IMG/VR virus record: IMGVR_UViG_2909262264_000005
Origin: a virus
Taxonomy: Duplodnaviria; Heunggongvirae; Uroviricota; Caudoviricetes
DNA: 64,000 nt
Direction: 5' to 3' (one strand)
The position numbers and the translations under genes were made by a program. How positions within the stretch are numbered: the stretch's first letter is position 1; each line of letters starts with the position of its first letter. Below the pieces are notes generated by a model, which saw only the letters and a list, made by a program, of their open reading frames with translations, searched no databases and was not told the origin of the DNA. Positions 7,861 to 57,347 of this stretch are shown in pieces.

Positions 7861-8518
7861 GGCGCGCCTCCCATTGATTACGGCGAAAAGCGGTGTGACT
7901 GAGGCTGGTTTCTGCCTTATGGAATGCTTCAATACAGCTCTCGTAGTACCGCATTGTGCGCAGACTTAACCCAAGCTGAAGCATCATCAGGCCGTCAAGG
8001 GTGATGTAATAACCACGCAGGGAATCGCCATACACGTGGTAAGTACCCGGTATGAAATTACGGGAGAAGAATTCACGCGAGCAGTTCAAATACTCGATTT
8101 TGTCGACGATGTTCTGGTGCATGCGCTTAAAGTGGCAGGCAACATGCAGGGAGAAAATAACAGCTTTGCCGTTGACGACTTCAATTTTGAGGAATGAGTG
8201 GGTTGGGACTGTAGCCATGATGGCAACCTCCTTGAGCAGTGAAAGACTTCCACCACCGGAGGTTCCAAGCTCGCTGGTGGCGGACTGAACAGGGTTGGAA
8301 CTACCGGCGCTCAAGGAAACCGGCGAGCCTTTCGGCTCCCCTGCCCAGCCCACCATAATTCTGGCGTGCGCGAGCATGGACGATAAAAAAGACGCTGGCG
8401 CGTCGTATATCGCCTCGAGCAATTCCGGGGTTCCAATCCCGGCACCCGCTTTATAAGGTGCCGGAACAGTGTAACGTCCCGAAATTGCAGAATCAATATT
8501 TAGGCTTGAAACATTCAT
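7853..8518 (-). CDS. Hypothetical replication-module protein (221 aa)
   Basis: Shares a conserved ~120-aa segment (…IPGRYTV.APYKAGAGIG…AIYDAPASFLSS…IMVGW…) with the 278-aa ORF at 56511-57347. Confidence 0.55.
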   Translation of the reverse strand: MNVSSLNIDSAISGRYTVPAPYKAGAGIGTPELLEAIYDAPASFLSSMLAHARIMVGWAGEPKGSPVSLSAGSSNPVQSATSELGTSGGGSLSLLKEVAIMATVPTHSFLKIEVVNGKAVIFSLHVACHFKRMHQNIVDKIEYLNCSREFFSRNFIPGTYHVYGDSLRGYYITLDGLMMLQLGLSLRTMRYYESCIEAFHKAETSLSHTAFRRNQWEARHV

Positions 8519-20455: not shown

Positions 20456-21040
20456 TTACACGGTGTCTGGTTCTTCTGGCCACTCAATATCCGGTGCAGT
20501 TGATGTATCAACACGGTTCAGCAACACCCGATACTTTTTCCAGGCTTCCAGCAATGAGGTTTCTTCCTCCGTTGCGATTTCCAGATCTACAGCATCCTGA
20601 AGTGGCGCAATATGCTCACTGGCTACCTGCATCAGGCTGTTTTTTGTTTCTTCCGCCTCTCGGATCCGGAACAGTTTTTCTGCTTCTGCATCTTTCACCC
20701 AGGCTGTGCCGTTCCACTTCTGAAACTCCCCTTCCGGCGATAACCAGGTAACATTTTCCGGTAACGGACCGAGTTCAGAAATAAATAACGCGTCCCCTGA
20801 CGCTACGTCATAAACCGTTTTACCCCGATGGTCTTCATCGAGATGCCACGATGCCTTATCACTGTTGAAAACAGCCACAAAGCCAGCAGGAATATCTGGT
20901 GGTGCAATATCGGTACTGTTTGCTGGCAGACCTGTATGAGGCGGAATATATGCGTCACCTTCACCAATAAATTCATTAGTTCCGGCCAGCAGATTATAAA
21001 TTTTTATGGTCCGTGGTTGTTCACTCATTCTGAATGCCAT
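20456..21040 (-). CDS. tfa: Tail fiber assembly protein
   Basis: [44 protein letters not shown]…; start overlaps stf stop (TAATG). Confidence 0.8.
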
Positions 21041-30713: not shown

Positions 30714-31043
30714 CTATGCCACGACCTGTTCAAAATCTGCCGTTATGGTTACCCACAGCGCCCCCACGCTTGCCGACCATTTACGACAAACCACCCTAAT
30801 CGGCTTCCAGTCATAAGGTGGCGTCCACTGAAATGCGCGGACGCCACCGTGCCGTTCCAGAAAGGCTTTTAAAGATGGGTGTTCACATTTACGAACACGT
30901 ATCGTCACGCTGTAAGTCGACAACTGGTTATTCAGTCCCGCCGCACGACGCTGTTCATAACCATCGCCCAGCTTCACTGTCACCACTTTCGGTTCTGATA
31001 CCACATTCATATCCGGGCGCACTTTCCAGTGAAACGTCTCCAT
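30714..31043 (-). CDS. M: Minor tail protein M
   Basis: 109 aa, same size and position as lambda M. Confidence 0.8.
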   Translation of the reverse strand: METFHWKVRPDMNVVSEPKVVTVKLGDGYEQRRAAGLNNQLSTYSVTIRVRKCEHPSLKAFLERHGGVRAFQWTPPYDWKPIRVVCRKWSASVGALWVTITADFEQVVA

Positions 31044-34000
31044 TACCGATATGCTCCACTTAACCGACCACCATCACGGGCCTGCTGTTGCATAAAGTCC
31101 GCTGCCGCTTTTTTCCCGAGGTCATAAACCACCTTCAGGGCAGCCGGACCTATCTGCCCGTTCGTGCCATCGTTATTGATCTCGATGTTGTACTGCGGGG
31201 CAAACATCGCCATACCTGAACCACCAATATCCGCCACAACCCCCAGCTTACCGTCAGCACCACGACGCAGTGGCAGAATGGCTTCAGGTCCAGCTTCCCC
31301 CATCACACCTGCACCTTTTGCAAAAGCAAAAAACGTCGGACGGTTAACCACCGTGCCACTGTAGCGACTCAAATCAGCAGACTGATAAACACCACCATCA
31401 GCATTGGGCGTCACACTGGCAGTTGCTGCACTCCCCCAGCCAAACGCCGAACCAATCCCCTTAACTGCCTGCATCATGGACATCTGGGCCATGATTTTTG
31501 CCAGATCAGAAAGGAGCGAGGCGGTAAAAGATTTGAAGTTCAGTTTTCCGGTAGTACAGAACGTTGCCAGTGCATTACCTGCACTGTTAAATGCCGCTGT
31601 AAGCATCTGCTCAGCAGTGCCTGCCGCATTATCCGCATCTGCCGTGAAATTCTGAAACGCCCGCATAGCACCGTTTTTCCAGTTACCCTGAGCAATTTCA
31701 AGCTGTTGCCAGTAACGGCGATTCTCATTCAGTTGTCGGTTCAGGCTCTCCGTCAGCGCCTGCTCGGCCTTTCTGTAGTCATCCGTGTTATATGTCCCTT
31801 TCTGCTCACTATCCCGCCTCAACTGCTCCAGCTGTTGCTGGTATTTCTGGCGAAGACTCAGTTGTACCTGATATCGCTGCCGCTGCTGATCACCCATACC
31901 CACCGTGGCGATATCCAGGTCATGTTGCTGACGCTGAGCGCGCTCTTCTTCAGCCAGTTGACTGGTCAGCTGAATTGTTTTTTTCTTCAGCTCGTTGAGT
32001 GCCGTCTGTTTCTGAAGCTCCTGCTGTTTTACATCCAGCAGCGTCAGTGCCTGAATCAGTTCATCTTTACGGGCCAGCACACTCTTTTCATCTGCCGTCA
32101 GTTTTTTCCCGTCCAGGTCGCTGATGCGCTGCTGCAGAGCCAGAAGCTGTTTATGCGCTTCTGTCATCTTTTCAGTGGCAATGCCTGCTGACTGTCTTGC
32201 AGCAGCAATCTGCCCTTCCACCTGTGCCTGTTGCTGACTGTACTGCATCAATAACCGGGTGGCCTCATCATTACGGGTTTCGCGTGTTTTTTTCTTACCG
32301 GATGCCAGGGCTTTCTCGTAACGTTCATTTTCACGTTGTATCGCCGCATCCCTGACAGCCTGGTCGGCGTACTGCATGGCATTAATACGCGCAATTTCAC
32401 GCTGATGTCGTGCTGCTTCCGTTTCATTCATCCGGTTCAGTGCAGCATTTTCAGCATTACGTCGTTTCTGTTGCTCCTGATAATTCCGCTCTGCCTGCTC
32501 TTTTGCATCCTGCAAATCCTTCTGGCGTTTTTTCTCCTGAAGATCGTTAAGACGCTGCTGATCGTATTCAACCTGAGAAGATGATGCCGTCCAGGGGAGT
32601 CTTTTCGCCCGCGACACTTTCTCCTGTAAAGCGGCAATCTGTTCATCCAGCGAGTCTTCACGACCAATATTCATGGCCGCATCCCAGAAACGACTCCACA
32701 AATCAGACAGATACTTCAGCGTACTGCCAAGCGCATTGAGGTTATTATCAATATCCGCAGTACGCCGACCGGTTTCCTCTGCCAGTGCAGACATGGCTAT
32801 CCGTGCAGCATCACTGGACCGTCCCTGATCCCCAAGGACACGTATCTGCTCAAGCTGAGTGGCAGTAAGAAAATGCAGCTCATTGTCCAGAGCCTTCGCG
32901 GCATTTACAGGATCATCCTTCAGCCGCTTAAACTGATTTATGGTATCGCTGACCGACTGGCCAACCGATCGCTCCATCTGTGCGGCAGCTCTCGCCACCA
33001 TACCGATATCGTTTCCACGAAATGCACCACTCCCCACCACCTGAGCCAGCGCACCGGCTGCAGCATGTTGCGTGATACCATTCCCGGAAATAGCACGACT
33101 AAGCGTCCACAGCTGCCCGGCAGTGACTCCGGCATAATGCCCCGTCAGCGACAACTGGCGGTTAAATTCTTCCCCCTCCTTCTGACCGTCATACCAGGCT
33201 TTACCCAGACCATAGACGGCCGCGGCAATACCGCCAATAACCCCGCCCAGCATCATGCCTTTCGGTGACATCAGTGTGTCTATCCATCCGGCACGGTTAG
33301 CCAGCGTTATCCCGGATCCCCTCAGCGCACCTAAATTGCCGCGAGCCAGTTCACCTATCAGAACGCCTATCTCCTGGCGGGCCGCTGCACTTTTCAGACC
33401 CAGCGAATGCGTGGCTTTTCCTGCCTGCTCCATTTTGCGGATATACACTTCTGCAGCACTGCTTACCCCCAGTTGGGCAGCCTTAGCACGAAGCAACTCA
33501 GAAGAAGAAAGATTCTGGCGGGTTGCCTGCTCTTTAAGCTGACGGATAAACGCCACTTTCTGTCGGGTAGCCTCTTCCTCAGCCTGTGTAAGAACACGGG
33601 TTTTCGCCGTAACCTCAGAAATCAGCGCCAGATAATCCTGCTGACCAATCCCGCCACTGTGTCTGGCCTGTCGGATCTGCTGCTGAATACGCTGTAATTC
33701 CTGCAGCCCCGCACTGGCCTGTTTCACACTGTCAATCTGACGATAAAACGCAGCAGCCGCTTTATCCTGAGCCTCCGCCAGAGCCATGGCCTGCGCCTGT
33801 TCATCGCGCATTTTCTGGCTCAGCGCCTCCATGCGCTGGCGGGTTTTCTCCACCTCGCGAGCCATGCGTTCATGAGCCTGTGCGTTCTTCTCCACCGTCT
33901 GCGCATGGACGGAGGCGGCTGTTGCAGCCGAAGAAGCCGCCTGCGTTGTCTGCCGGGCGGCCTGAGTCTGACGCTCCATAAAACGCTGCATACGGGCAGA

Positions 34001-34147
34001 AGACCGTTCTGCATCGCTGGCTGCACCATTCAGAAGGTTTTTGATACGGGGAATTTCATTTTTAAACTCTGCCGCATCAATCCCCAAATCAATGACCAGG
34101 TTGGCTATCTGGTCCATAACGCACACCTCCGGAAATACCTTCTCCAA
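31043..34147 (-). CDS. H: Tail tape measure protein H
   Basis: 1034 aa; long coiled-coil, Ala/Gln/Glu-rich; C-terminal …NNDGTNGQIGPAALKVVYD… typical of lambdoid tape measure. Confidence 0.85.
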   Translation of the reverse strand: MEKVFPEVCVMDQIANLVIDLGIDAAEFKNEIPRIKNLLNGAASDAERSSARMQRFMERQTQAARQTTQAASSAATAASVHAQTVEKNAQAHERMAREVEKTRQRMEALSQKMRDEQAQAMALAEAQDKAAAAFYRQIDSVKQASAGLQELQRIQQQIRQARHSGGIGQQDYLALISEVTAKTRVLTQAEEEATRQKVAFIRQLKEQATRQNLSSSELLRAKAAQLGVSSAAEVYIRKMEQAGKATHSLGLKSAAARQEIGVLIGELARGNLGALRGSGITLANRAGWIDTLMSPKGMMLGGVIGGIAAAVYGLGKAWYDGQKEGEEFNRQLSLTGHYAGVTAGQLWTLSRAISGNGITQHAAAGALAQVVGSGAFRGNDIGMVARAAAQMERSVGQSVSDTINQFKRLKDDPVNAAKALDNELHFLTATQLEQIRVLGDQGRSSDAARIAMSALAEETGRRTADIDNNLNALGSTLKYLSDLWSRFWDAAMNIGREDSLDEQIAALQEKVSRAKRLPWTASSSQVEYDQQRLNDLQEKKRQKDLQDAKEQAERNYQEQQKRRNAENAALNRMNETEAARHQREIARINAMQYADQAVRDAAIQRENERYEKALASGKKKTRETRNDEATRLLMQYSQQQAQVEGQIAAARQSAGIATEKMTEAHKQLLALQQRISDLDGKKLTADEKSVLARKDELIQALTLLDVKQQELQKQTALNELKKKTIQLTSQLAEEERAQRQQHDLDIATVGMGDQQRQRYQVQLSLRQKYQQQLEQLRRDSEQKGTYNTDDYRKAEQALTESLNRQLNENRRYWQQLEIAQGNWKNGAMRAFQNFTADADNAAGTAEQMLTAAFNSAGNALATFCTTGKLNFKSFTASLLSDLAKIMAQMSMMQAVKGIGSAFGWGSAATASVTPNADGGVYQSADLSRYSGTVVNRPTFFAFAKGAGVMGEAGPEAILPLRRGADGKLGVVADIGGSGMAMFAPQYNIEINNDGTNGQIGPAALKVVYDLGKKAAADFMQQQARDGGRLSGAYR

Positions 34148-34418
34148 GATGCATCAGTTCTTCGTCCGTTCGCTCCGGTATCCCGTTCTCTTCCGGTAAA
34201 AGGCTGAAATCAGCCACCGCAGCATCACTGCTGCCGGACACCATTCTCACGATCAATGCCTTCAGCGAGGCAAACTGCGCATCCATCCACACATCACTGA
34301 AGCTCTGCATCCGGAAATAATCGCCCCACTCACCAAGCTCAGTGGCCGACATTTCCGACAGCATCCGCCGCCAGTCTGCCCGCCGGAACTCCCGGGCAAG
34401 CCGCATGACAAACTGCAT
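34089..34418 (-). CDS. T: Tail assembly chaperone T segment (expected to be expressed as a G-T fusion by -1 frameshift)
   Basis: ORF in the -1 frame overlapping the 3' end of G and the 5' end of H, as in lambda G/GT. Confidence 0.5.
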   Translation of the reverse strand: MQFVMRLAREFRRADWRRMLSEMSATELGEWGDYFRMQSFSDVWMDAQFASLKALIVRMVSGSSDAAVADFSLLPEENGIPERTDEELMHLGEGISGGVRYGPDSQPGH

Positions 34419-34426
34419 TTCCCGCG

Positions 34427-34855
34427 TCAGGACTTTTCCGGCGTCAGCGCCTCATGCTCATCATCCCCGGCATTATCAATGGCCCCCATACCGCTCAGCG
34501 ACAGAACCATCTCCGCCCCCGCACCCAGGGCATCATACGACCATGTTGTAATAACGGATGCGCAAAGCGTCTCTACATCCTTAGACTGATCCGCATTCCA
34601 CAGTGAGCGGGAAACCAGCCAGGCATTGATATCCATCCCCATCCGCAGAAAAGCAATCTGTCGTTCAGCCTCCGGCAGTTCTCCCTCCCCGGCATCAAAC
34701 TTTGCCGTTCGCTGCTGAACAAACGCCAGATATTCAATTCTCTGCAGCCCGGACAGCTCACTGAGCACCACGGACTGTTTTTCATAATTAAACGTGCCCT
34801 GTTTCAGAAACATCATGTTCTCCACCTGCAAAAAAGCCCCGAATAACCGGGGCAA
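34427..34855 (-). CDS. G: Tail assembly chaperone G
   Basis: 142 aa between V and T. Confidence 0.7.
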   Translation of the reverse strand: MPRLFGAFLQVENMMFLKQGTFNYEKQSVVLSELSGLQRIEYLAFVQQRTAKFDAGEGELPEAERQIAFLRMGMDINAWLVSRSLWNADQSKDVETLCASVITTWSYDALGAGAEMVLSLSGMGAIDNAGDDEHEALTPEKS

Positions 34856-34873: not shown

Positions 34874-35617
34874 TTAACCTGCGGCGCTGACAGCCACCGT
34901 AGCCACTGCCACAAAATCGCCGTCAGAAGTCATGCCCACAATGCTGACACTGCCCTGCTTCACGCCTTTCACCGTGGCCACAAGTCCGTTCAGGGTCACA
35001 GTGGCTGTCTGTGGATCTGTCGAATGCACACTGATCGCTTTGTCACTGGCTCCGTCAGGTTTTACTGTAAAGGTCAGCGTGGTGGTTGCTCCCACATTGA
35101 CACTGGCGGATGCCGGTGCCACCGTCAGCCCGGTAACGCCCACAGTTTGAGTGCCCTCCTCTGCCAGATATGGACGCCCCACACCGCTGATTTTAACGGT
35201 GCGGGTCATCACGTCTTTTGAGGCAATGGTTTTACCCAGTGAACTCAGCCAGCCACGGAAAACATCAACAGTACCGTTGGGATATTTGATACGAAACGCG
35301 CAGACTTCACCGGAGTCGAACAACTGAACCAGTTTTTTCTGCCCGCTGTCACCCGGACGCCAGGCCAGCGTCGCCGAAGTATCACCGACGGATTTCTGCC
35401 CCTGGGTTGTCGTTTTCCAGTCTGCATCTTCATCATCGAGATAAGTGTCATCTTCTGCATCAGCGGTCATTTCGCCAGGTTGCAGATCCTTCACCATCGC
35501 AAGACGCAGCCAGTCAGTGTCCGATAAAGGGTTCGCAAACGCATCGCCCTTGCCGGTGTACATCCAGAACGTCGTTCCCGCACCTTTCGTTTTTGCCAGT
35601 GGATTTGGTGTGGTCAT
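34874..35617 (-). CDS. V: Major tail protein V (with C-terminal Ig-like domain)
   Basis: Start MTTPNPLAKTKGAGTTFWMY with RBS AAGGAGG; …VFRGWLSSLGK… like lambda V. Confidence 0.85.
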   Translation of the reverse strand: MTTPNPLAKTKGAGTTFWMYTGKGDAFANPLSDTDWLRLAMVKDLQPGEMTADAEDDTYLDDEDADWKTTTQGQKSVGDTSATLAWRPGDSGQKKLVQLFDSGEVCAFRIKYPNGTVDVFRGWLSSLGKTIASKDVMTRTVKISGVGRPYLAEEGTQTVGVTGLTVAPASASVNVGATTTLTFTVKPDGASDKAISVHSTDPQTATVTLNGLVATVKGVKQGSVSIVGMTSDGDFVAVATVAVSAAG

Positions 35618-56518: not shown

Positions 56519-57347
56519 GACGATGCCCTCCGCTGATATTCAGGAGACGGTGAATATGAAAATTAGCCTTATCCGCCAAACGGATACGTTCAGCCTGCAA
56601 GTTAAGAAGGGTTTCTACCAGAACCTGATGCGCCTGCGGATCCGAAAGAGTTACCTTGCGCAGAGCACGTAGTGCAGTTGTTACATAACTGAGTTTATGT
56701 AAGTCTTCATCATTCAGACGAGTGAGGGCTGGGACAGTAGCCATGATGGCAGCCTCCGATAACAGTGAATTACCTTCACCACCGGAAACGCCAATTTCGC
56801 TGGTGGTGAACTGAACGGGGTTGGCGTAACCGGCGTTATCGGAAACCGGCGCACCTTTCGGTGCCCCCGTCCAGCCCACCATAATTTGGGTGTGCGCAGA
56901 CGCAGACGATAAAAAAGACGCTGGCGCGTCATATATCGCCGATAACATTTCCAGGACGCCAATCCCGGCACCCGCTTTATAAGGTGCCTGAACAGTGTAA
57001 CGTCCCGGAATGGCAGAATCAATGTGCTGGTGGTCCTTCACACTCAACAAAATCACGCCTGAATTTCCACAAAGGACTAAAGCACTCATGCGGGTAGTCT
57101 TTGCGAAGATAGATAACGCGCTGTGTTTCTGGCTCCCAACGAATAACATGGACATAAAGCCCTCTTCCATCACGAAACCAGCGGTTAAGTTCCTGCACAA
57201 CTCGCCCCCCACAGTCAGGTAAAGTTCTCTGTGGTTACTTACAGCCAGGTGATTTGGTAATCTGCATTCATGCCGTAACAACAGGTGTTCAGCGACACTG
57301 ACCACCAGCTGTTGCGACAAACGGTTATTTGCCGTTAAACTGTTCAT
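56511..57347 (-). CDS. Hypothetical replication-module protein (278 aa)
   Basis: Shares conserved core with 7853-8518. Confidence 0.55.
   Translation of the reverse strand: MNSLTANNRLSQQLVVSVAEHLLLRHECRLPNHLAVSNHRELYLTVGGELCRNLTAGFVMEEGFMSMLFVGSQKHSALSIFAKTTRMSALVLCGNSGVILLSVKDHQHIDSAIPGRYTVQAPYKAGAGIGVLEMLSAIYDAPASFLSSASAHTQIMVGWTGAPKGAPVSDNAGYANPVQFTTSEIGVSGGEGNSLLSEAAIMATVPALTRLNDEDLHKLSYVTTALRALRKVTLSDPQAHQVLVETLLNLQAERIRLADKANFHIHRLLNISGGHRHA

What the first reader, a model, noticed from the sequence alone, without database searches (positions are those of the whole stretch)
34400..34460. Probable programmed -1 frameshift joining tail chaperones G and T
The T ORF lies in the -1 frame overlapping the end of G and has no independent start with an RBS, as in lambda G/GT. 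The overlap contains CCGGAAAAG, a non-canonical slippery candidate, so the exact shift site is uncertain.
Basis: inference. Interest (0 to 1): 0.2.

Follow-up and report, generated by a model that had tools for sequence, protein, structure and literature searches.

The report
Lambda-type G/GT tail chaperone frameshift
This is the ordinary, long-known -1 ribosomal frameshift that lambda-like phages use to make a small amount of a fused G-T tail-assembly chaperone, here in a very common E. coli prophage and at the heptamer GGAAAAG that the phage N15 and phage LLS records mark as this slip site.

Summary
On the minus strand, a gpG homologue (34813..34427) is followed by a gpT homologue whose frame is -1 and opens only at 34451. 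The shift must therefore occur within 22 nt (34451..34430). Only one motif in that stretch allows re-pairing: G_GAA_AAG at 34439..34433.

The site is not really uncertain:
- The GenBank/RefSeq records of phages N15 and LLS annotate this same heptamer as the -1 slip site.
- It is the commonest heptamer among relatives, in 40 of 52 distinct junctions. The AAA core is invariant in all 52.
- Third-codon-position variability switches from the G frame to the T frame at the heptamer.
- The conceptual 241-aa fusion aligns colinearly with lambda gpGT (E 4e-43), with the slip-site lysine aligned.

Public records (RefSeq/PGAP, phage mEp460) start T at an ATG at 34418. That ATG has no usable Shine-Dalgarno sequence, is Leu or Arg in most relatives, and is absent in Gifsy-2.

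The module is 99.7% identical to phage mEp460 and occurs in 1845 of 5426 complete E. coli genomes. This is a known mechanism and a known site, so interest is low. Fusion synthesis was not shown here; it is inferred from comparison.

The parts
34874..35617 (-). Major tail tube protein gene (lambda V homologue), immediately upstream of G.
   Evidence: Pfam Phage_TTP_12 1.9e-66 plus Big_2. Coordinates were mapped from the mEp460 annotation.
34830..34853 (-). Terminator-like hairpin GCCCCGGTTATTCGGGGC followed by TTTTTT, between V and G. It probably lowers transcription of G, T and H relative to V.
   Evidence: The mEp460 record annotates the equivalent site as a rho-independent terminator, and the N15 record annotates a putative terminator at the corresponding V/G position.
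34427..34813 (-). Gene G, the tail assembly chaperone of 128 aa (MFLK...TPEKS), stop TGA at 34429-34427. It is the product of standard decoding.
   Evidence: Pfam PF06894 1.8e-39. SD GGTGGAG lies 5 nt before ATG 34813. PGAP uses the same start.
34433..34439 (-). Slip site G_GAA_AAG (0-frame codons CCG GAA AAG, -1 frame GGA AAA G). tRNA-Lys re-pairs from AAG to AAA, and tRNA-Glu from GAA to GGA.
   Evidence: It is the only Z_ZZN motif in the 22-nt permitted stretch. It is identical to the annotated slip sites of N15 and LLS. It is found in 40 of 52 distinct junctions, with the AAA core invariant.
34430..34451 (-). The G/T overlap, the only stretch in which a -1 shift can join G to T. It is bounded by T-frame TGA 34454-34452 and G-frame TGA 34429-34427.
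34089..34433 (-). T segment read in the -1 frame after the slip (VLTREMQFVMRLAREF...GGVRYGPDSQPGH, 114 aa, stop 34091-34089). With G residues 1-127 it gives a 241-aa GT fusion.
   Evidence: Pfam PF06223 5.1e-15. Fusion built. Colinear with lambda gpGT, E 4e-43.
34416..34418 (-). In-frame ATG that public annotation uses as the T start. It is probably just an internal Met codon of GT.
   Evidence: No spaced SD. The position is Leu or Arg in most relatives, and Gifsy-2 has no start codon there.
34450..34453 (-). SD-like GAGG 10 nt upstream of the heptamer, the same geometry as in dnaX. It is a possible weak stimulator and is not established.
   Evidence: an SD core is present in 18 of 52 distinct junctions, including this clade and Gifsy-2, and is absent in lambda and N15.
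31043..34117 (-). Tape measure protein gene (lambda H homologue). Its start overlaps the end of T by 29 nt, and its SD GGAGGTG lies inside T's conserved GGVRYG motif.
   Evidence: Pfam TMP_2 2.8e-49 and Tape_meas_lam_C 9.8e-24. SD duplex -10.8 kcal/mol.

Best explanation
Most ribosomes translating gene G read ...CCG GAA AAG TCC TGA and release the 128-aa chaperone G.

A small fraction slip back one base while tRNA-Glu (on GAA) and tRNA-Lys (on AAG) occupy the P and A sites. tRNA-Lys re-pairs perfectly with AAA. tRNA-Glu re-pairs with GGA through a central G-U pair. Alternatively, only the Lys tRNA slips, as at A_AAG tetramers. Decoding then continues in the -1 frame (GTC CTG ACG...) to give a 241-aa G-T fusion.

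By analogy with lambda, many G and a few GT molecules coat the tape measure protein H. The T domain then recruits the tail tube protein V. Neither G nor GT ends up in the virion.

Shown here: the ORF geometry, the homology, the position of the slip site, its conservation, and the frame switch in the conservation pattern. Inferred: that the shift happens, its efficiency, and the tRNA details.
For: - Gene order V-G-T-H, with Pfam matches to gpG, gpT, the tail tube and the tape measure.
- T is in the -1 frame and the permitted stretch is only 22 nt, with a single re-pairing motif.
- The same heptamer is annotated as the -1 slip site in N15 and LLS.
- Among 52 distinct junctions from 76 loci, GGAAAAG occurs 40 times, GGGAAAG (lambda's) 6 times and AAAAAAG once. 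The AAA core is invariant, while flanking bases vary freely.
- The least-conserved codon phase is the G-frame third position upstream of the heptamer (0.17 vs 0.70 and 0.73 bits). Downstream it is the T-frame third position (0.61 vs 1.09 and 1.12 bits).
- Residues between the heptamer and the ATG are conserved in the T frame: GKVLTRE here against lambda GKVFDGE, with K2, E7 and F10 invariant.
- The first in-frame ATG of T falls at codon 7, 11, 17 or 25 in different relatives, so there is no conserved start.
- ATG 34418 lacks a usable SD.
- The fusion aligns with lambda gpGT across the junction at E 4e-43.
- The literature covers lambda G:GT of about 30:1, conservation of G-T frameshifting among long-tailed phages, and A_AAG and NNA_AAG shiftiness in E. 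coli (PMC5009743).
Against: - There is no direct evidence of the fusion protein for this phage group.
- The heptamer is not a strict X_XXY_YYZ, because P-site re-pairing of GAA to GGA has a central G-U mismatch.
- No significant downstream structure was found: for the 90 nt after the site, z = -1.09 and 35 of 200 shuffles fold as well.
- An ATG lies 8 nt after the G stop and is used by all public annotations.
- The exact fusion sequence is absent from a 15-billion-protein collection. This reflects annotation practice, not biology.
Confidence: 0.9

Rival explanations
1. T is a separate protein started at ATG 34418, as annotated by PGAP and in the mEp460 and cdtI records. Ribosomes terminating at the G stop 8 nt upstream could reinitiate there by translational coupling.
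For: The ATG exists in frame, 8 nt downstream of the G stop. Every public record inspected for this clade annotates T as a separate ORF, all but phage Ayreon from this ATG. The 109-aa product is on record on at least 1000 contigs.
Against: There is no spaced SD: the duplex is -4.3 kcal/mol, equal to the 25th percentile of random sequence, and the paired bases abut the ATG. The codon is Leu or Arg in most relatives, and Gifsy-2 (54% identical T) has no start codon there at all. T-frame conservation and the codon-phase switch begin at the heptamer, 18 nt upstream of the ATG. In lambda the T part is described only as the -1-frame C-terminal domain of the gpGT fusion, whose G part tethers it to the tape measure (PMC5009743).
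Confidence: 0.07
2. The frame change is made at the RNA level, by transcriptional slippage of RNA polymerase on the A run, rather than by the ribosome.
For: An A run is present. A minority of relatives carry six A's (TCAAAAAAG in some Stx phages), where slippage is more conceivable.
Against: From general knowledge, not tested here: the run here is only four A's, and productive transcriptional slippage generally needs much longer homopolymer runs. The conserved feature is the heptamer in a fixed reading phase, which matters for tRNA re-pairing and not for polymerase slippage.
Confidence: 0.01
3. The overlap and the heptamer are fortuitous. T is a decaying remnant and no fusion is made.
For: Many copies sit in prophages that may be defective.
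Against: The same sequence is found in plaque-forming phages (mEp460, Tritos, Ayreon and others). T shows protein-coding conservation across genera. Chance expectation of the in-phase heptamer is about 0.1% (counts).
Confidence: 0.01

Closest known systems
Phage lambda G / GT tail assembly chaperone -1 programmed frameshift (Levin, Hendrix and Casjens 1993; Xu, Hendrix and Duda 2004, 2013, 2014; cited through PMC5009743)
   Same: It has the same gene order (V, G, T, H) and the same Pfam families (PF06894, PF06223). T is in the -1 frame. The slip site is at the homologous position, with the slip-site Lys aligned. The fusion is colinear, at 35% identity over 251 columns and E 4e-43.
   Different: Lambda uses the canonical G_GGA_AAG and this element uses G_GAA_AAG. 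The overlap stretch is shorter (22 nt against 61 nt). The G stop follows one codon after the heptamer rather than five. T lacks lambda's C-terminal duplication of the GGVRYG segment.
Phage N15 genes 14/15 and phage LLS genes 11/12 (also phi80, mEp043 and mEp237)
   Same: The heptamer GGAAAAG is identical and sits at the homologous position. It is explicitly annotated as the -1 slippery sequence in NC_001901 (10027..10033) and in PQ299149.
   Different: T is only 42-46% identical. Those phages lack the GAGG 10 nt upstream, and their G tail after the site is five codons long.
Gifsy-2 prophage STM1039 / STM1041.1n (Salmonella)
   Same: It is the closest annotated relative outside the clade, with T 54% identical. 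It has the same CCG GAA AAG TCC TGA junction and an AGAGGA 9 nt upstream. Its record calls T 'part of G+G' frameshift hybrid protein'.
   Different: It has no ATG after the G stop, so independent initiation is impossible there.
E. coli dnaX, and A_AAG / NNA_AAG -1 frameshift sites (IS1222 G_CGA_AAG, B. subtilis cdd A_CGA_AAG)
   Same: tRNA-Lys slips from AAG to AAA. The P-site codon is not a perfect XXY (PMC5009743). This clade has an SD-like GAGG with a 10-nt spacer, as in dnaX.
   Different: There is no significant downstream hairpin. The protein family and biological purpose are unrelated. The expected efficiency is a few percent, against about 50% for dnaX.

Membership tests
Lambda-like G/GT tail assembly chaperone frameshift | Two overlapping ORFs located between the major tail (tube) gene and the tape measure gene. 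| tested here: met
   V (PF16461), then G, then T, then H (PF06791, PF09718) on the minus strand.
Lambda-like G/GT tail assembly chaperone frameshift | Sequence homology of the two ORFs to gpG and gpT. | tested here: met
   PF06894 at 1.8e-39 and PF06223 at 5.1e-15. BLASTP of the fusion against lambda gpGT gives E 4e-43.
Lambda-like G/GT tail assembly chaperone frameshift | The downstream ORF is in the -1 frame and has no conserved start codon or RBS of its own. | tested here: met
   -1 frame. ATG 34418 lacks a spaced SD. The position of the first ATG varies among relatives and Gifsy-2 has none.
Lambda-like G/GT tail assembly chaperone frameshift | A slip-prone sequence inside the overlap, conserved at the nucleotide level. 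| tested here: met
   G_GAA_AAG at 34439..34433. It is in 40 of 52 distinct junctions, the AAA core is invariant, and it is the most conserved block of the junction.
Lambda-like G/GT tail assembly chaperone frameshift | Coding constraint switches from the upstream frame to the -1 frame at the slip site. | tested here: met
   The phase of least conservation changes from the G-frame third position to the T-frame third position at the heptamer.
Lambda-like G/GT tail assembly chaperone frameshift | Synthesis of both G and a minor GT fusion (about 30:1 in lambda), both required for tail assembly. | not testable with these tools
   This needs proteomics or genetics. Only the lambda data are available, through PMC5009743.
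Canonical X_XXY_YYZ tandem-slippage heptamer | The first three bases are identical, so that the P-site tRNA re-pairs with at most a wobble-position change. | tested here: not met
   The heptamer is G_GAA_AAG. The P-site codon GAA becomes GGA, a second-position G-U mismatch. It fits the Z_ZZN (A_AAG) / NNA_AAG class instead (PMC5009743).
dnaX-type stimulated -1 frameshift | An internal Shine-Dalgarno-like element about 10-14 nt 5' of the slip site. | tested here: inconclusive
   GAGG with a 10-nt spacer is present here and in close relatives. An SD core is found in 18 of 52 distinct junctions, and 35% are at or below -4.5 kcal/mol against 15% of background. It is absent in lambda and N15. It overlaps a conserved Glu codon, so coding constraint may explain it.
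dnaX-type stimulated -1 frameshift | A stable stem-loop or pseudoknot a few nt 3' of the slip site. | tested here: not met
   The fold of the 90 nt downstream is -38 kcal/mol against a shuffle mean of -34.5, z = -1.09.

The most novel reading that the evidence does not exclude
In this subgroup (mEp460/cdtI, Gifsy-2 and a few other enterobacterial prophages) the imperfect heptamer G_GAA_AAG might be helped by a dnaX-like internal Shine-Dalgarno element. That element would be GAGG, 10 nt upstream, embedded in the conserved Glu codon of G. G:GT stoichiometry would then be tuned by rRNA-mRNA pairing, which has not been described for tail chaperone frameshifts. More modestly, G_GAA_AAG, with a central G-U re-pairing by tRNA-Glu, is the majority slip site of enterobacterial lambda-type chaperones in this sample, and I did not find a measurement of its efficiency.
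Probability: 0.2. Interest if true: 0.3.

Novelty: already known. Interest (0 to 1): 0.08.

Why it matters
It matters mainly for annotation. This module is present in about a third of complete E. coli genomes (1845 of 5426). RefSeq and most phage records list T as a free-standing 109-aa protein, and the 241-aa GT fusion is absent from a 15-billion-sequence protein collection. Correct annotation would join 34813..34433 to 34433..34092 with ribosomal slippage. Biologically it adds nothing new to the well-understood role of G and GT in measuring and assembling long phage tails.

Tried and rejected
- Downstream stimulatory RNA structure. The 90 nt after the site fold no better than shuffles (z = -1.09), so this was rejected.
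- Independent T start. I tested anti-SD pairing at ATG 34418 and compared it with real starts and with random sequence, then checked conservation of the ATG across relatives. It was rejected as the main route.
- Other slip sites. Every codon in the 22-nt stretch was inspected by eye on the and sequence, and only A_AAG allows re-pairing.
- Literature search for 'GGAAAAG' plus 'frameshift' returned only unrelated human and plant genetics papers. Xu et al. 2004 is not held in the library. The Serratia and Vibrio HY01 phage papers say nothing about this frameshift. The thermodynamic dnaX paper and Sharma et al. 2014 do not test G_GAA_AAG.
- PDB sequence search with the fusion found no solved relative.
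- The viral-contig scan returned 80 near-identical copies and added no diversity. The diversity came from genome contigs and from phage records.
- A search for a second G/T pair in the window found none.

Full report
**What is in the sequence**

All genes in this part of the window run on the minus strand. The order, 5' to 3' on that strand, is:
- a lambda V-type tail tube gene, 35617..34874 (Pfam Phage_TTP_12 1.9e-66 plus Big_2);
- a terminator-like hairpin, 34853..34836, followed by a T run;
- a gpG homologue, ATG 34813 to TGA 34429-34427, 128 aa (Pfam Phage_TAC_2 1.8e-39);
- a gpT homologue, whose frame is open from 34451 to 34092 (Pfam Phage_tail_T 5.1e-15);
- a lambda H-type tape measure gene, ATG 34117 to 31043 (TMP_2 2.8e-49, Tape_meas_lam_C 9.8e-24).

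The T frame is -1 relative to G. It is closed by a TGA at 34454-34452. A ribosome that is to join G to T must therefore change frame between 34451 and the G stop, a stretch of 22 nt.

The 0-frame codons there are GAG GCG CTG ACG CCG GAA AAG TCC TGA. Only at A_AAG can a tRNA re-pair in the -1 frame.

GGAAAAG occurs 12 times on this strand in 64 kb. My estimate from those counts is that its presence in phase within about 7 codons has a chance expectation near 0.1%.

**Identity of the element**

The 781-nt G-T region is 99.7% identical to phage mEp460 and 97.7-99.6% identical to fifteen other phage records, including cdtI, Tritos, Ayreon and phi458. It is found in 1845 of 5426 complete E. coli genomes. 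It is a very common lambdoid tail module.

**Is T made by frameshifting or from its own start?**

mEp460, cdtI and RefSeq/PGAP all annotate T as a free 109-aa ORF from ATG 34418, which lies 8 nt after the G stop. Ayreon starts it even further downstream.

Four lines of evidence argue that this ATG is not the real start.

1. The only SD-like bases (GGGAA) abut the ATG. The duplex with the 16S 3' end is -4.3 kcal/mol, equal to the 25th percentile of random 20-mers from the same strand. The G start gives -6.4 kcal/mol with 5-nt spacing, and the H start gives -10.8 kcal/mol with 6-nt spacing.

2. The ATG is not conserved. The homologous codon is Leu in lambda, N15, phi80 and Gifsy-2, and Arg in others. 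The first in-frame ATG of the T frame falls at codon 7, 11, 17 or 25 in different relatives. Gifsy-2, the closest relative outside the clade (54% identity), has no start codon near the junction.

3. T-frame protein conservation starts at the heptamer, not at the ATG. The window reads GKVLTREMQFVMRLAREF and lambda reads GKVFDGELSFALKLAREM. K2, E7 and F10 are invariant in eight diverse sequences.

4. The frame of coding constraint switches at the heptamer. I collected 64 loci from species-representative genomes and 12 phage loci, which gave 52 distinct 67-nt junctions. Upstream of the heptamer the least-conserved phase is the G-frame third position (0.17 bits against 0.70 and 0.73). Downstream it is the T-frame third position (0.61 bits against 1.09 and 1.12).

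**Which site?**

In those 52 junctions the heptamer at the homologous position is:
- GGAAAAG in 40;
- GGGAAAG (lambda's) in 6;
- GGCAAAA in 2;
- CCCAAAA in 2;
- GGGAAAA in 1;
- AAAAAAG in 1.

The AAA core is invariant, and the heptamer is the most conserved block of the junction, while the flanking bases vary.

The same heptamer is annotated as 'slippery sequence for -1 translational frameshift' in the phage N15 record (NC_001901, 10027..10033). It is annotated as 'minus-one programmed translational frameshift site GGAAAAG' in phage LLS (PQ299149). The Gifsy-2 record describes its T as part of a G+G' frameshift hybrid. The site is therefore not uncertain, and it is not new.

The conceptual product is G residues 1-127 (ending ...ALTPEK) followed by VLTREMQ..., 241 aa in total. 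It aligns colinearly with lambda gpGT across the junction at 35% identity over 251 columns, E 4e-43, with the slip-site lysine aligned.

**Mechanism**

Shown here: the geometry, the homology, the site, its conservation, and the frame switch in the conservation pattern.

Inferred from established knowledge (the Atkins et al. 2016 review, PMC5009743):
- In E. coli the single tRNA-Lys slips readily from AAG to AAA.
- A_AAG alone supports low-level -1 shifting, and its efficiency depends on the preceding codon (NNA_AAG). Natural sites of this kind include G_CGA_AAG in IS1222.
- G_GGA_AAG is highly shift-prone.

In this window the P-site tRNA-Glu would re-pair from GAA to GGA with a central G-U pair. 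This is not a strict X_XXY_YYZ heptamer. A weak site is adequate, because lambda needs only about one GT per 30 G.

Function, by analogy with lambda: G and the G part of GT coat the tape measure protein, and the T domain binds the tail tube protein and starts its polymerisation. Both leave the finished tail (PMC5009743).

**Stimulators**

The 90 nt downstream of the site fold no better than shuffled sequence (z = -1.09).

Upstream, this clade has GAGG separated from the heptamer by 10 nt, the same geometry as the dnaX internal SD. A 4-nt SD core is found in 18 of 52 distinct junctions. In 35% of junctions the duplex is at or below -4.5 kcal/mol, against 15% of background segments from inside G. 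Lambda and N15 lack the element, and it overlaps a conserved Glu codon. I treat it as an untested possibility only.

**Rivals**

- Independent initiation or termination-reinitiation at ATG 34418 cannot be excluded as a minor extra product. As the main route it is contradicted by the four points above.
- Transcriptional slippage is implausible on a run of four A's (general knowledge, not tested here).
- Chance overlap is excluded by the conservation.

**Comparison and novelty**

This is a member of the lambda G/GT programmed -1 frameshift family. The review describes that frameshift as widely conserved among long-tailed dsDNA phages. It uses the N15-type heptamer.

Every defining feature that can be tested in silico is met. 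Synthesis of the fusion protein could not be tested.

The only practical point is annotation. The exact 241-aa fusion is absent from a collection of about 15 billion proteins, whereas the 109-aa 'T' is on record on at least 1000 contigs. No solved structure is related by sequence.

**Verdict**

The mechanism and the site are already known, and interest is low.

Noticed in passing
window 34830-34853 (minus strand): A strong terminator-like hairpin (GCCCCGGTTATTCGGGGC plus TTTTTT) sits between the tail tube gene V and G. It is annotated as rho-independent in mEp460, and N15 has a putative terminator at the same V/G position. It would lower expression of G, T and H relative to V, which adds a second layer of stoichiometry control on top of the frameshift.
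   Followed up: partly
window 34450-34453 (minus strand); loci L005, L026, L027, L041, L071: An SD-like GAGG lies 10 nt 5' of the slip site, with dnaX-like spacing, in this clade and several relatives. It is not found in lambda or N15. An SD core is present in 18 of 52 distinct junctions, and strong anti-SD pairing is seen in 35% against 15% of background. Sequence relatedness was not controlled for.
   Followed up: partly
window 34089-34117 (minus strand): The tape measure gene start overlaps the end of T by 29 nt. Its Shine-Dalgarno GGAGGTG is encoded inside T's conserved C-terminal GGVRYG motif, so that motif is under dual constraint.
   Followed up: no
window 8273-8461 and 56799-56987 (minus strand); direct repeats 1130-1429/46243-46542, 6989-7288/55865-56164, 8179-8478/56705-57004: There are two copies each of the C4 antisense RNA and the isrK Hfq-binding sRNA (Rfam). 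Direct repeats of 79-92% identity are spaced 45-49 kb apart. The window seems to hold two related prophage-type regions, perhaps adjacent lambdoid prophages. Only one of them carries a G/T pair.
   Followed up: partly
window 20499-20697 (minus strand): A full-length match to Rfam IS009 (229 bits against a gathering score of 117), downstream of the tail gene block on the coding (minus) strand.
   Followed up: no
loci L056-L062, L064-L068 and L074-L077 (genome contigs): Contigs filed under unrelated organisms carry a junction identical to lambda's over the 45 nt compared. Examples are Kitasatospora, Neobacillus, Oceanobacillus, Shewanella, Leeuwenhoekiella, Enterococcus, Pseudoxanthomonas and Psychrobacter. 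Many are short or low-coverage contigs. This is almost certainly lambda DNA contamination of those assemblies.
   Followed up: no
loci L023 (Kluyvera) and L025 (Ewingella), position 701: A variant junction, CTG GCA AAA TAG, in which the slip motif A_AAA abuts the G stop codon directly. The shift there may occur with tRNA-Lys in the P site and the stop codon in the A site.
   Followed up: no
public records NC_019716 (mEp460), MF807953 (Ayreon), NZ_CM132658 (PGAP); window 34089-34418: T is annotated as a free-standing ORF from ATG 34418, or from even further downstream in Ayreon. No record inspected for this clade carries the ribosomal-slippage join, and the exact 241-aa fusion is not in the large protein collection.
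   Followed up: yes
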